Below are positions 11,557-46,902 of a DNA stretch of 64,000 bases, piece after piece; the stretch's first letter is position 1; the number at the start of each line of letters is the position of its first letter. The stretch spans positions 4,526,001-4,590,000 of the forward strand of contig OZ024761.1 in assembly GCA_964016885.1 (NCBI GenBank), read 5' to 3'. The stretch comes from Eledone cirrhosa. Its lineage: Eukaryota. A program made the translations under genes and the position numbers. The notes under the pieces were generated by a model. It saw nothing but the letters and a program-made list of their open reading frames with translations, was not told where the DNA came from and did not search any database.

Positions 11557-11724
11557 TATTTTGATTATGAGAATATTTTTCATTTATTAATATTTTGAAT
11601 AATATTAAATACTCCAGCAAAATTTCTTGTCGAGTGCTTCTAATCTATTGTAAAATTGTATTCGTTGAATAATTGAATATTAATCTTTGGTCATACATAC
11701 ATATATACATATTTCTGTGTGCAG

Positions 11725-12196
11725 GTTTATGTTTGATATTCACTGGCAGCTCCGTAATATTGAAAATGAACTGCAGACGATGCTGACTACACTTGCTCAA
11801 GGGGACAAGCGCTTTCTCCGAGAGAACAGTCAATTGCGGAACAGTCTTCGTGCGTATCAAATGAAAGTCAATTCTGAGATGGATAATGCTGAAAAGGCAG
11901 TTGGTGGCATGAAACGATCTATTACTCAAATGTTGAGGTTCCACACAATATTAGTCAAACTGATGAAACTACTGGCATGCGATAGTAAAATGATAGAAAA
12001 AGTTCAAAATACTAATTGCGCAGAGGAATTTCCAAGAGAAGCCATAGTAGATATCCAAGAAAAAGTAATTCATATTCTTAGCATTAAAAACAGCATGAAA
12101 CTAATAAAAGTGGATAAGCGTGATACGAAACTAGCTCGCTATGAATCTCACCACAAACACAAATCAATTCCCTCTTTACCATTTTTTGATCAATAA
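11725..12196 (+). CDS. Terminal coding exon, C-terminal part of an ODAD1/CCDC63-like protein
   Basis: Acceptor TTTCTGTGTGCAG (AG 11723-11724), then a phase-2 start G|TTT ATG. Helical ORF FMFDIHWQLRNIENELQ...ACDSKMIE...IQEKVIHIL resembles the region after NFAxFN in CCDC114 (CDSSMID). Stop TAA 12194-12196 overlaps AATAAA 12192-12197. Confidence 0.65.
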
Positions 12197-12283
12197 ACAT
12201 ATTCATACTTTACTGTTTACATAGTTACATCTATATATATAGATAAACACGTCTTAAATTATATGTTTGAACATTCCATCTTA

Positions 12284-15200
12284 CGATGTCTCATATGGTA
12301 CATCAGACCGGCAAGGGACATCTCATACCACATCAGACCTGCTAGGGACATGTCATACCACAACCGACCTGCAAGGGACATGTCATACTACATCAGACCT
12401 GCTAGGGATATGTCATACCACATCAGACCTGCTAGGGACATGTCATACTGCATTAGACCTGCTAGGCAGATGTCATACCACACCAGACTTGCTAGGGACA
12501 TGTCATACCATATCAGACCTGCTAGGGAGATCTCATTTCACATCAGACCTGTTAGTGAGATGTCATAATACATCAGACCTTCTAGGGATATGTCATACCA
12601 CATCAGACCTGCCAGGGACATATCATACCACATCAGACATGCTAGGCATATATCATACCACATCAGACCTGCTAGGGAAATGTCATACTACATCATACCA
12701 GCTAGGGAGATGTCATACCAGATCAAACCTGTTAGGGTGATGTCATACTATAGGGAGTTGTCATACCACATCAGACCTGTTAGGGAGATGTCATACCACA
12801 TCCAACCAGCTAGGGACATATCATACCACATCACACCTACAAGGGACATGTCATACCACATCAGACCTGTTAGGGACATGTCATTCCACGTCAGACGTGC
12901 TAGTGACATGTCATACCACATCAGACCTGCCAGGGACATGTCATACCACATCAGACCTGCAAGGTACAGGTCATACCACACCAGATCTCCAATGTACATG
13001 TCATACCACATCAAACCTGTTAGTGAGATGTCATACAGCATTAGACCTGCTCGGGACATGTCATACTACATCAGACCTGCTAGACAGATGTCATACCACA
13101 TCAGACATGCTAGGGACATGTCATACCACATCAGACATGCTAGGCACATATCATATCACATCAGACCTGCTAAGGAGGTGTCATACGACATCAGAACTGT
13201 TAGGGAGATGTCATACCATACCAAACCTGCTAGGGACATATCATACCACATCACACCTGCAAGGGACATGTCATACCACATCAGACCTGCTAGGGACATG
13301 TCATACCACATCAGATCTGCAAGGGACATGTCACACCACATCAGACCTGTTAGTAAGATGTCATACCGCATTAGACCTGCTAGGGACATGTTATACCACA
13401 TCAGACCTGCTAGGGACATGTCATACCACATCAGACCAGCTAGGCAGATGTCATACAACATGAGACCTGCTAGGGAGGTGTCATACCACATCAGATCTGA
13501 CCACATCAGACATGTTAGTGAGATGTCATACCACATTAAACCTGCTAAGGAGATATCATAATTCATCAGACCTGCTAGGCCATGTCATACCACATCAGAC
13601 CTGCTAGGGACATGTCATACCACATCAGACCTGCTAGGGACATGTCATACCACATCAGACCTGCCAGGGACATGTCATACCGCATTAGACCTGCTAGGGA
13701 CATGTCATACCACATCAGACCTGCTAGGCATATGTCATACAAGATCAGACCTGCTAAGAAGATGTAATACCACATTAGACCTGCTAGGGAGATGTCATAC
13801 CACTTCAGCTCTGACTACACAGACCGGTTAGTGAGATGCGATACCACATTAGACCTGCTAAGGAGATGTCATATAAATTAGACCTGCTAGGGCATGTCAT
13901 ACCACATCAGACATGCTAGGGAATGTCATACTACATAGGAGTTGCAAGGAACATGTCATACAACATCAGACCTGTTAGTGAGATGTCATAATACATCACA
14001 CCTGCAGGGGACATGTCATACGACATCAGACCTGCTAGGAACATGTCATACCACATCAGACGTACTAGGGACATGTTATACCACATCAGACCTGCCAGGG
14101 AGATGTCATACCGCATTAGACCTCCTAGGGACATGTCATACAACATCAGATCTGCAAGGCAGATGTCATACCACACATACCGGTTATTGAGATGTCATAC
14201 CACATTAGACCTGCTAGGGAGATGTCATAAAAATCAGACCTGCTAGGGCATGTCTAACCACATCAGATCTGTTAGTGAGATGTCATACCACATCAGACCT
14301 GCTAGGGAATGTCATACTACATCAGACATGCAAGGGACATATCATACCACATGAGACCTGCTAGGGACATGTCATACCACATCAGACCTTTTAGGGACAT
14401 GTCATACCACATGAGACCTGCTAGGGACATGTCATACCACATGAGACATGCTAGGAAGATGTCATACCACATCAGACCTGCTAAGGAGATGTCATACCAC
14501 ATTAGACATGCTAGGGAGGTATCATACCACATCATATCTGAACACACAGACCGGTTAGTGAGATGTCATACCACATTAGACCTGTTAGGGATATGTCATA
14601 AAAATCAGACCTTCTCGGGCATGTCAGACCACATCTGACCTGCTAGGGAATGTCATACTACATAAGACTGCAAGGGAGATATCATACCACATCAGACTGC
14701 TAGGCACATGTCATAATACATCAGACCTGCTAGGGACAAGTCATACCACATGAGACCTGCTAGGCACATAACATACCACATCAGACCTGCTAGGGAGATG
14801 TCATACTACATCAAACCAGGTAGGGAGATGTCATACCACATCAGACCTGTTAGGGAGATGTCATACTACATAAGACCAGCTAGGGAGATTTCATACCACA
14901 TCAGACCTGCTAGGGAAATGTCATACCACATCAGATCTGTTAGTGAGATGTCATACCACATTAGGCCTGCTAGGGAGATGTCGAAATACATCAGACCTGC
15001 TACGGCATGTCAAACCACATCAGAACTGCTAGGGAATGTCATACCACATCATACCTGCTAGGGAGAGGTCATACCGCATTAGACCTGCTAGGGACATGTC
15101 ATACCACATCAGACCTGCTAGGGAGAGGTCATACCGCATTAGACCTGCTAGGGACATGTCATACCACATCAGACCTGCTAGGCAGATGTCATACCACATC

Positions 15201-45603: not shown

Positions 45604-45604
<1 letters not shown>

Positions 45605-45612
45605 ACCTCAAG

Positions 45613-46547
45613 ATGAATAGATATTTAGACGAAGGAGAGCACCAGATGATTGAACATCAACATAAACTTGCTGGCGCCCTTCGTAAAGCCACCTTACAGT
45701 TGGCTAGGAACAACAGAACCATATTTTGGCAGAACAGAAAATTCTATCGACTGAAGGCGGAAAGGAAAGAGTTAGAGCTAGTCCTGTCGTTTTGTCGATC
45801 GTACAAGATTCCACCACTGGAAAATGTCCTGCTTAGGATTTGGAAGGACTTGGATGACGACTACATAGAGAAGAGAGACAAGCAAATAACACCGGAAAAA
45901 TGTGCCCTGATCGAGAAACACCTAAAGAATTCTGAAAGAAAACTCAAAGAGAGCAAACGTCAAACAGACCTTTCTCAAGAAGATATATCAGCGACGAAGA
46001 GGTATATTTTCACGATGGAAAACCGACTTCAAGTGAAAACTATTGAATTTGGAAAAAAATACACAGAACTAACCAAACTACGAAAGGAATTGTCGTCTCT
46101 ACAGTTAACTATTGAAGCCTTCAAAGTAATGTATGACAAATTAGAGGCCTTACACGGCGACATTACTTTGAAAGTAGAGACTTTGGTGAGAAACTCCAGA
46201 GATGCTTATCTTAATAAAGAAGAGGCCAACACAAAAATGACCCACCTCAAGGAAAGAATTGAACAAAACAACAGCCATTACAAATTTGAGATGAACGAGG
46301 TCGATAGAAATGTGTTCAAGGCGATACAATGTGAAAAATTCCTTTCAGTGTTGATGCAGGTACGAGAAGAGTGTTCATTGGATATAGATTTGGAGAAATA
46401 CGAAAAAGAACTTGTTACACGACTTCGCCAGCTGACTGAATACCAGAAAGCATTTCATGCTTTGAAAGATGCTAGCGGGACTGATAACATACAAGTAATG
46501 ATAACACGCTATCACCACAGGAAGTCTCGAAACTTTTCACTTTTTAG
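45613..46547 (+). CDS. N-terminal coding exon of an ODAD1(CCDC114)/CCDC63-like coiled-coil outer dynein arm docking protein
   Basis: Non-repetitive 311-codon coiled-coil ORF. Motifs MENRL...F, LRKEL, S.DAY..KEEA..KM..LKE, Y..EM.E..R and NFSLF match my recollection of the ODAD1/CCDC63 family. It ends at a canonical donor AG|GTAAGT (intron starts 46548, phase 2); the in-frame TAA lies inside that donor. Confidence 0.75.
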
Positions 46548-46902
46548 GTAAGTATGAAGAAGGATATATCAACACCTTCTAACAACAGCAGCAGCAACAA
46601 CAACAAGAAGCAGGGTTTGGCTTTGCGAGCCCTACGCCAAGTTTCTTCATTTTCCAAATCCTCTGCATCCCCTCCCCCACCACAAACTAAGCCCCACCCC
46701 CGATCTCCAACATCACTTTCAGATATATATTGCTTGGCCTTCCACTTCCTCTACTTCCTTATATATCCATTTTCACCACTCATCTCCCCCAGTCACTTCC
46801 CCCAACACATGACCAAGCCACCCCATTCAATTTCTCTTCATAACATTCATCCTTCCTCAACACATGACCCAGCCATCTCATTCTTCTTTCACTCCATACC
46901 AA

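What the first reader, a model, noticed from the sequence alone, without database searches (positions are those of the whole stretch)
11723..46553. Two halves of an ODAD1/CCDC63-like gene in reversed order, with phase-compatible splice sites
Seen: the exon at 45613 ends ...TTT AG|GTAAGT (phase 2), and the exon at 11725 begins CAG|G TTT ATG. Joining them gives AGG (Arg) and a continuous ~468-aa ORF reading ...RNFSLFR-FMFDIHWQLRNIENELQ.... Recalled knowledge: this parallels CCDC114 NFAEFN-FINEQNLELE...CDSSMID. The 3' exon lies 33 kb upstream on the same strand, and I see no second 3' exon in 46.5-64 kb. Inference: the most parsimonious reading is a head-to-tail array of paralogues with very large introns, i.e. 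an expansion of a sperm/cilia docking-complex gene. Alternatives are misassembly across the satellites, or a permuted gene needing back- or trans-splicing, where a 46547-to-11725 back-splice would create the full ORF.
Basis: partly seen in the sequence, partly recalled or inferred. Interest (0 to 1): 0.8.

Follow-up and report, generated by a model that had tools for sequence, protein, structure and literature searches.

The report
Tandem octopod flagellar docking-gene pair
The two "reversed halves" are the last exon of one gene and the first coding exon of the next in an intact head-to-tail pair of ODAD1/CCDC63-like genes that the window edges cut; the pair is ordinary, likely arose from one reverse-transcribed copy, and likely serves the sperm tail.

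Summary
The splice sites and the 468-codon join are real, but the join is a chimera of two neighbouring paralogues. The missing exons lie just outside the window. Gene A's first coding exon ends 5.2 kb before it; gene B's last exon starts 15 bases after it. A (466 aa, intron 16.9 kb) and B (467 aa, intron 17.5 kb) are both open, 30% identical, and share one phase-2 intron, which is why any pairing of their exons stays in frame. All 5 annotated Octopus proteins compared pair the halves A1-A2 or B1-B2, and A and B carry neighbouring identifiers in three Octopus species. Permutation and misassembly are not needed. The residual interest is the origin. The genome's two multi-exon ODAD1 genes have 10 distinct intron positions, 4 of them shared. 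A and B have none of these, and their single intron sits where those two genes are uninterrupted. This points to an old processed copy that gained an intron and then duplicated. A sperm-tail role is inferred by analogy only; expression was not tested. Ordinary gene duplication, low interest.

The parts
1..11724 (+). In-window part of gene A's single coding intron (16,945 nt in all); acceptor AG at 11723-11724. Its 5' exon A1 lies OUTSIDE the window, ending 5.2 kb before base 1: G000:C22:4519851-4520779 = L001:3851-4779, 929 nt, ATG to phase-2 GT donor
   Evidence: A1 matches Pfam ODAD1_CC E=2.9e-12
11725..12196 (+). Gene A last exon (A2), 472 nt to the TAA stop
   Evidence: 39-44% identical to the C-halves of A orthologues against 21-23% to those of B orthologues
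12197..45612 (.). 33,416-nt stretch between A's stop and B's ATG: 30-, 28-, 30-, 26- and 16-nt satellites, microsatellites and broken frames that resemble LINE reverse transcriptases (resemblance recalled, not searched); may hold UTR exons
45613..46547 (+). Gene B coding exon 1 (B1), 935 nt, ATG to phase-2 donor GTAAGT at 46548-46553
   Evidence: DNA-like contigs of 3 of 3 runs (one sample) cover it and run on across the donor
46548..64000 (+). In-window part of gene B's single coding intron (17,467 nt in all), largely 14-, 55- and 28/53-nt satellites. Its 3' exon B2 lies OUTSIDE the window, from the 15th base after the end: G000:C22:4590015-4590483 = L005:15-483, TTAG acceptor, 469 nt to the TGA stop
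   Evidence: B2 is 37-39% identical to the C-halves of B orthologues against 24-25% to those of A orthologues

Best explanation
The window cuts through two intact, same-strand, head-to-tail ODAD1/CCDC63-family genes with two coding exons each, which likely descend from one reverse-transcribed copy and likely encode sperm-tail versions of the dynein-docking subunit DC2. Each gene would be spliced by ordinary cis-splicing of one 17-kb GT-AG phase-2 intron (A1 to A2, B1 to B2) to give a coiled-coil protein of 466 or 467 aa. Shown: exon order, splice signals, open frames, family, and orthology of each half. Inferred history (about 0.7): an mRNA of a multi-exon ODAD1 gene, more likely the C1 lineage, was retro-inserted and lost its introns; it gained one intron at the conserved NF(S/A)LF-R motif; then it duplicated in tandem before the Octopus and Argonauta lineages separated from this one. 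Inferred function (about 0.55, analogy only): pairing with ODAD3/CCDC151 to anchor outer dynein arms in the sperm flagellum, as CCDC63 does in mammals.
For: A1 and B2 found 5.2 kb before and 15 nt after the window, with canonical splice sites. A and B are open. 5 of 5 annotated Octopus proteins compared match A1+A2 or B1+B2 on both halves and none is crossed. Tree: own A groups with A orthologues (SH-aLRT 100), own B with B orthologues including Argonauta (99), A+B together 96. Neighbouring identifiers in O. vulgaris (CAI9740456.1 and CAI9740457.1), O. bimaculoides (LOC106872880 and LOC106872881) and O. sinensis (LOC115224478 and LOC115224480), with equal contig lengths within each species. 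No N in 264 kb. Multi-exon genes C1 and C3 share 4 intron positions; A and B have 0 of their 10 distinct positions and one intron at alignment column 338, where both are uninterrupted. Exon 2 is homologous to the canonical C-half: hhalign 88%, E=2.8e-6, 128 columns, against 4.6% for the reversed control; Pfam covers profile 2-282 of 287 on the B orthologue. A+B+X and C1 lie on one side of a branch of support 97, and A, B and C1 lack the long C-terminal tail of canonical members. An ODAD3-like gene is present at C19. Sperm-specific paralogues of this gene are reported in mammals, flies and moths (PMC11779644 passages; PMC11288676 passages).
Against: No spliced read or expression data were obtained, so both joins rest on signals, open frames and other species' gene models, which are predictions. 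A2 and B2 alone do not hit ODAD1_CC. They match the own C1/C3 C-halves poorly (z -0.6 to 2.5), and in hmmsearch reversed controls overlap real scores for 5 of 7 C-halves. The parent is not settled: identity to C1 and C3 is alike (20-26%), and the tree is a quick one with long branches and no test of the clade. Intron positions were mapped in this genome only, so stepwise intron loss, or retention of an intron lost in C1 and C3, is not excluded. The proteins are very divergent (20-26% to their relatives), so the docking role may have changed.
Confidence: 0.85

Rival explanations
1. Same tandem pair, but the ancestor was a DNA-level duplicate that lost its introns one by one (or a partly processed copy that kept one old intron), so no intron was gained.
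For: Only two multi-exon relatives in one genome were mapped. No target-site duplication was sought. The AATAAA plus A21 run 3' of B is a single case (1 of 4 long A-runs in 424 kb).
Against: Clean absence of all 10 positions, including the 4 shared by C1 and C3, on a different contig from both, is what one processing event gives. Neither C1 nor C3 has the column-338 intron.
Confidence: 0.25
2. Besides the two normal products, read-through transcripts swap exons between the paralogues: A1 joined forward to B2, or B1 back-spliced to A2 in a circular RNA, giving hybrid proteins.
For: Both crossed joins are open frames (465 and 468 aa); the genes are on one strand and have stayed neighbours in three Octopus species.
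Against: 0 of 5 annotated Octopus proteins are crossed. Frame compatibility follows from the shared intron. It needs read-through of 33 kb past A's stop. Tandem neighbours commonly stay together without any such splicing (general knowledge).
Confidence: 0.04
3. One permuted gene whose halves are stored in reverse order and need back- or trans-splicing.
For: Inside the window alone the 3' exon precedes the 5' exon, and the join is in frame.
Against: Each half has its own partner in normal order just outside the window, and orthologues pair B1 with B2 and A2 with A1.
Confidence: 0.01
4. Misassembly across the satellites produced the order.
For: The stretch is rich in long satellite arrays. No long-read or Hi-C check could be run; the laid contigs were short.
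Against: The order A1-A2-B1-B2 is collinear and yields two complete genes whose halves match separate orthologues. There is no N in 264 kb, and the orthologues are neighbours in three other assemblies.
Confidence: 0.01

Closest known systems
Octopus genes LOC115224478 / LOC115224480 (O. sinensis), LOC106872880 / LOC106872881 (O. bimaculoides), CAI9740457.1 / CAI9740456.1 (O. vulgaris), and Argonauta GAB1608225.1
   Same: One-to-one orthologues of B and A: same length (465-467 aa for the full models), 48-53% identity to Octopus and 42% to Argonauta, same pairing of halves, neighbouring identifiers.
   Different: Annotated as uncharacterised, or mis-named 'centromere-associated protein E' in one case. 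No paper in the held library names the 6 identifiers searched. No Argonauta A orthologue came up in my searches.
ODAD1/CCDC114, CCDC63 and Chlamydomonas DC2 (Pfam PF21773 ODAD1_CC)
   Same: Pfam match over cut-off, and the 6 best solved-structure matches of the family profile are ODAD1, CCDC63, DC2 or docking-complex chains.
   Different: Only 20-26% identical to the genome's own multi-exon members, shorter (no long C-terminal tail), one coding intron instead of 7 or more.
Germline-specific duplicates of this gene: mammalian CCDC63, Drosophila wampa, moth wimpa/wompa
   Same: Repeated duplication of the same docking-complex gene; in moths the germline copy duplicated again into two paralogues (PMC11288676 passages). 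CCDC63 replaces ODAD1 in mammalian sperm (PMC11779644 passage).
   Different: Independent duplication in octopods (inferred from the tree); expression unknown here; the moth paper's main text has no occurrence of 'retro' or 'intron'.
Retrogenes that gained introns (PMC3565874, abstract; PMC5470649, passages)
   Same: Parental introns absent, one new intron in the coding sequence.
   Different: Here the event is old, the intron is 17 kb, no coding sequence is missing at the site (so not intronisation), and the copy was later duplicated in tandem.

Membership tests
ODAD1/CCDC63 (DC2) family | ODAD1_CC domain over the Pfam cut-off | tested here: met
   B1 87 bits, A1 47 bits, cut-off 27; full-length orthologues cover profile 1-278 and 2-282 of 287
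ODAD1/CCDC63 (DC2) family | Nearest solved relatives are docking-complex DC2-type chains | tested here: met
   (profile E=3.2e-10 to ODAD1, 1e-9 to CCDC63)
ODAD1/CCDC63 (DC2) family | Exon-2 part homologous to the canonical C-terminal coiled coil | tested here: met
   hhalign 88%, E=2.8e-6, reversed control 4.6%; single-sequence tests weak
ODAD1/CCDC63 (DC2) family | Heterodimer with ODAD3/CCDC151 | not tested
   An ODAD3-like gene exists at C19; binding not examined
ODAD1/CCDC63 (DC2) family | Located on axonemal doublets and needed for outer-arm docking | not testable with these tools
   needs proteomics, imaging or knock-down
Tandem paralogue pair | Two complete homologous genes, adjacent, same strand | tested here: met
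Permuted / back-spliced gene | No in-order partner exon exists for either half | tested here: not met
   A1 upstream and B2 downstream
Retrogene | Parental introns precisely absent | tested here: met
   0 of 10 distinct C1/C3 positions present in A or B
Retrogene | Located away from the parent gene | tested here: met
   contig C22 against C1 and C3; flanking genes not compared
Retrogene | Poly(A) remnant and target-site duplication | tested here: inconclusive
   AATAAA plus A21 3' of B, 1 of 4 long A-runs in 424 kb; an original tail is unlikely to survive at this age; no duplication sought
Retrogene | Identified parent | tested here: inconclusive
   tree and missing tail favour C1; identities do not separate C1 from C3
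Sperm-specific paralogue (CCDC63/wampa type) | Testis-restricted expression | not testable with these tools

The most novel reading that the evidence does not exclude
The two paralogues form an exon-swapping cassette: because they share one phase-2 intron, read-through or back-splicing joins A1 to B2 or B1 to A2 and yields hybrid docking-complex proteins in octopod sperm, and this is why the pair has stayed together across octopods.
Probability: 0.04. Interest if true: 0.6.

Novelty: new member of a known kind. Interest (0 to 1): 0.2.

Why it matters
As a 'permuted gene' it does not matter: that picture is an effect of where the window was cut. What remains is modest. This genome carries at least four DC2-type genes (C3, C1, A, B) beside one ODAD3-like match. 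If A and B are sperm-specific, cephalopods are a further independent case of the sperm tail acquiring its own docking-complex subunit, after mammals, flies and moths. The pair would also be a clean, datable case of intron gain in an old processed gene. It gives a family name to genes annotated as uncharacterised or mis-named in three Octopus species.

Tried and rejected
Expression: no RNA holder listed for exon B1; the 3 listed runs are one sample, and their contigs run straight across the donor like DNA, with no joint at the splice site. This says nothing on expression. More copies: none beyond A and B in 264 kb or genome-wide with B1, A2, the Pfam profile and P0009 (lower bounds). The weak C19 Pfam matches are ODAD3-like, not a fifth ODAD1; the weak C12 match (E=0.3) was not followed. 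Poly(A) relic 3' of B: anecdotal; the stretch has one weak match elsewhere; not used as support. Careful tree: did not finish; the quick tree (54 rows, 30 of 59 extra candidates) was used, and test_one_clade was not run. Literature: no paper held both 'octopus' and these genes among the 15 of 27 listed; 0 papers for 6 identifiers; 0 hits in the main text and 6 supplementary files of the Octopus maya testis paper PMC6341066. Supplements of bioRxiv 10.1101/2022.11.14.516384 (search listing only) are closed and might hold tissue expression for these genes. Earlier scan notes: nothing. Structure prediction and complex prediction were not run: long coiled coils match unspecifically, and no full-length ODAD3 partner was at hand.

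Full report
Observation. An exon runs from the ATG at 45613 to 46547 and ends TTT AG|GTAAGT, phase 2. An exon at 11725-12196 follows CAG|G TTT ATG and ends at TAA. Joined, they give 468 codons with no internal stop. The 5' exon matches Pfam ODAD1_CC (E=1.4e-24, 87 bits, cut-off 27), and its best solved relatives are ODAD1, CCDC63 and DC2.

What lies outside the window. The window is G000:C22:4526001-4590000 in a 3.0-Gb genome. A search with the 5' exon gave 2 matches: itself and a 34%-identical exon ending 5.2 kb before the window. A search with the 3' exon gave 2 matches: itself and a 19%-identical exon just past the window end. The upstream exon A1 (C22:4519851-4520779) starts at ATG and ends TTC AG|GTAAAT, phase 2. 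The downstream exon B2 (C22:4590015-4590483) follows TTAG|G and ends at TGA. The order on the + strand is A1, 16,945-nt intron, A2, 33,416 nt, B1, 17,467-nt intron, B2. A1+A2 gives 466 aa and B1+B2 467 aa, both open. The crossed joins are open too (468 and 465 aa), because both genes have the same phase-2 intron; frame compatibility therefore cannot tell which exons belong together. No further copy and no N was found in 264 kb around the locus.

Which halves belong together. Orthologues decide it. Three Octopus proteins (O. sinensis, O. vulgaris, O. bimaculoides) match B1 at 54% and B2 at 37-39%, against 40-41% to A1 and 21-23% to A2. Two others (O. bimaculoides, O. vulgaris) match A1 at 57% and A2 at 39-44%, against 31-37% to B1 and 24-25% to B2. 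So 5 of 5 compared are uncrossed. A and B orthologues carry neighbouring identifiers, on contigs of equal length within each species: CAI9740456.1/CAI9740457.1, LOC106872881/LOC106872880, LOC115224480/LOC115224478. Argonauta has a B orthologue. These are gene models, not observed transcripts, but they come from separate assemblies. In the quick tree (54 rows; 30 of 59 extra candidates used; SH-aLRT only) own A groups with A orthologues (100), own B with B orthologues (99), and A+B form one side of a branch (96). The host is therefore likely an octopod (inference).

Origin. The Pfam profile finds two multi-exon members elsewhere, on C3 and C1. I modelled 8 exons of each with open frames and canonical sites, one C1 intron being GC-AG; C3 has further 3' exons that I did not model. 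C1 and C3 share 4 intron positions in place and phase and have 3 more each. A and B have 0 of these 10. Their one intron lies at column 338, in the well-aligned NF(S/A)LF-R motif, where C1 and C3 are uninterrupted. Exon 2 is not a recruited foreign exon: a profile of 7 family C-halves aligns collinearly to a profile of 70 canonical C-halves (33 of 103 candidates dropped for lacking the motif or being short) at 88%, E=2.8e-6, against 4.6% for the reversed control. Single-sequence tests of this are weak. The simplest history is one processed copy, one intron gain and one tandem duplication (inference). A more distant clade X of unnamed records (P0009, P0156, P0158) is sister to A+B (100). 5 of the 160 proteins held stop exactly at the motif's R (P0001, P0008, P0009, P0156, P0157), as a gene caller would when it meets this donor, so the intron likely predates the A/B split. 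The parent is more likely C1: A+B+X and C1 lie on one side of a branch of support 97, and A, B and C1 lack the long C-terminal tail. Identities do not separate C1 from C3 (20-26%), and long branches may attract. Intron gain in retrogenes is known (PMC3565874, abstract; PMC5470649, passages). I could map introns in this genome only, so stepwise loss or retention of an older intron remains open.

Function. Open frames in both genes and their retention in four other named octopod species (B) and three (A) argue for function (inference). They diverge faster than C1: 49-53% against 68% identity to O. bimaculoides. An ODAD3-like partner gene is at C19. In mammals CCDC63 replaces ODAD1 in the sperm docking complex (PMC11779644, passage), and its loss makes male mice sterile with short flagella (PMC4632774, abstract). 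Flies and moths made germline paralogues, and moths duplicated theirs again (PMC11288676, passages). Retrogenes lean to testis expression (PMC5470649, passages). I commit to a sperm-flagellum docking role at about 0.55; nothing here tests it.

Misassembly is unsupported, though long reads were not available. The introns are normal for this genome (19.8 kb in C3, 12.3 kb in C1). The 'expansion' is a pair. Crossed splicing as a minor extra product cannot be excluded without RNA, but nothing supports it.

Verdict. An ordinary tandem pair cut by the window edges: a new member of a known kind, interest 0.2. The genes appear undescribed in the held library (listings only, most subscription papers are missing). 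The likely processed origin with intron gain is the only point of specialist interest.

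Noticed in passing
L005:820-861 (G000:C22:4590820-4590861): AATAAA followed 15 nt later by a genomic run of 21 A, about 340-360 nt after B's stop; 1 of 4 A-runs of 15 or more in 424 kb has such a signal. Could be B's real 3' end, a small insertion, or chance.
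   Followed up: partly
window 45466-45604 and L001:3748-3815: Both start codons are preceded by a CAC-rich tract and then a TAC-rich tract; possibly a shared relic of the duplicated 5' region. The O. bimaculoides B protein has at least 4 accessions with one sequence, which suggests alternative UTRs.
   Followed up: no
window 46062 and 46338: Run X3 shows other letters at two places in exon B1; both are synonymous.
   Followed up: yes
G000:C19:1769791-1776064 (L035, L036): Multi-exon ODAD3/CCDC151-like gene; two exons match solved ODAD3 chains (E=6.8e-7 and 2.1e-4).
   Followed up: partly
G000:C1:403415808-403392915 (L027-L034): Second, divergent multi-exon ODAD1-like gene (488 aa, 8 exons, one GC-AG intron) with orthologues in Octopus, Argonauta and Sepia.
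   Followed up: partly
window 46548-46553 and L001:4780-4785: Reading on into the intron meets a stop at once in both genes, so unspliced RNA would give a protein ending at the motif; this explains the 311-312 aa calls in unnamed records.
   Followed up: partly
window 17688-23068, 31246-37681, 60544-63603: Broken frames that resemble LINE-type endonuclease and reverse-transcriptase genes, on both strands (resemblance recalled, not searched).
   Followed up: no
window 12300-17302, 25214-29878, 38034-40744, 42203-45453, 47467-50762, 51737-59088: Long satellite arrays with units of 30, 28, 30, 16, 55 and 28/53 nt, the first starting about 100 nt after A's stop.
   Followed up: no
P0003 (XP_014775524.1): The O. 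bimaculoides A orthologue is named 'centromere-associated protein E' by one source, though it carries ODAD1_CC.
   Followed up: yes
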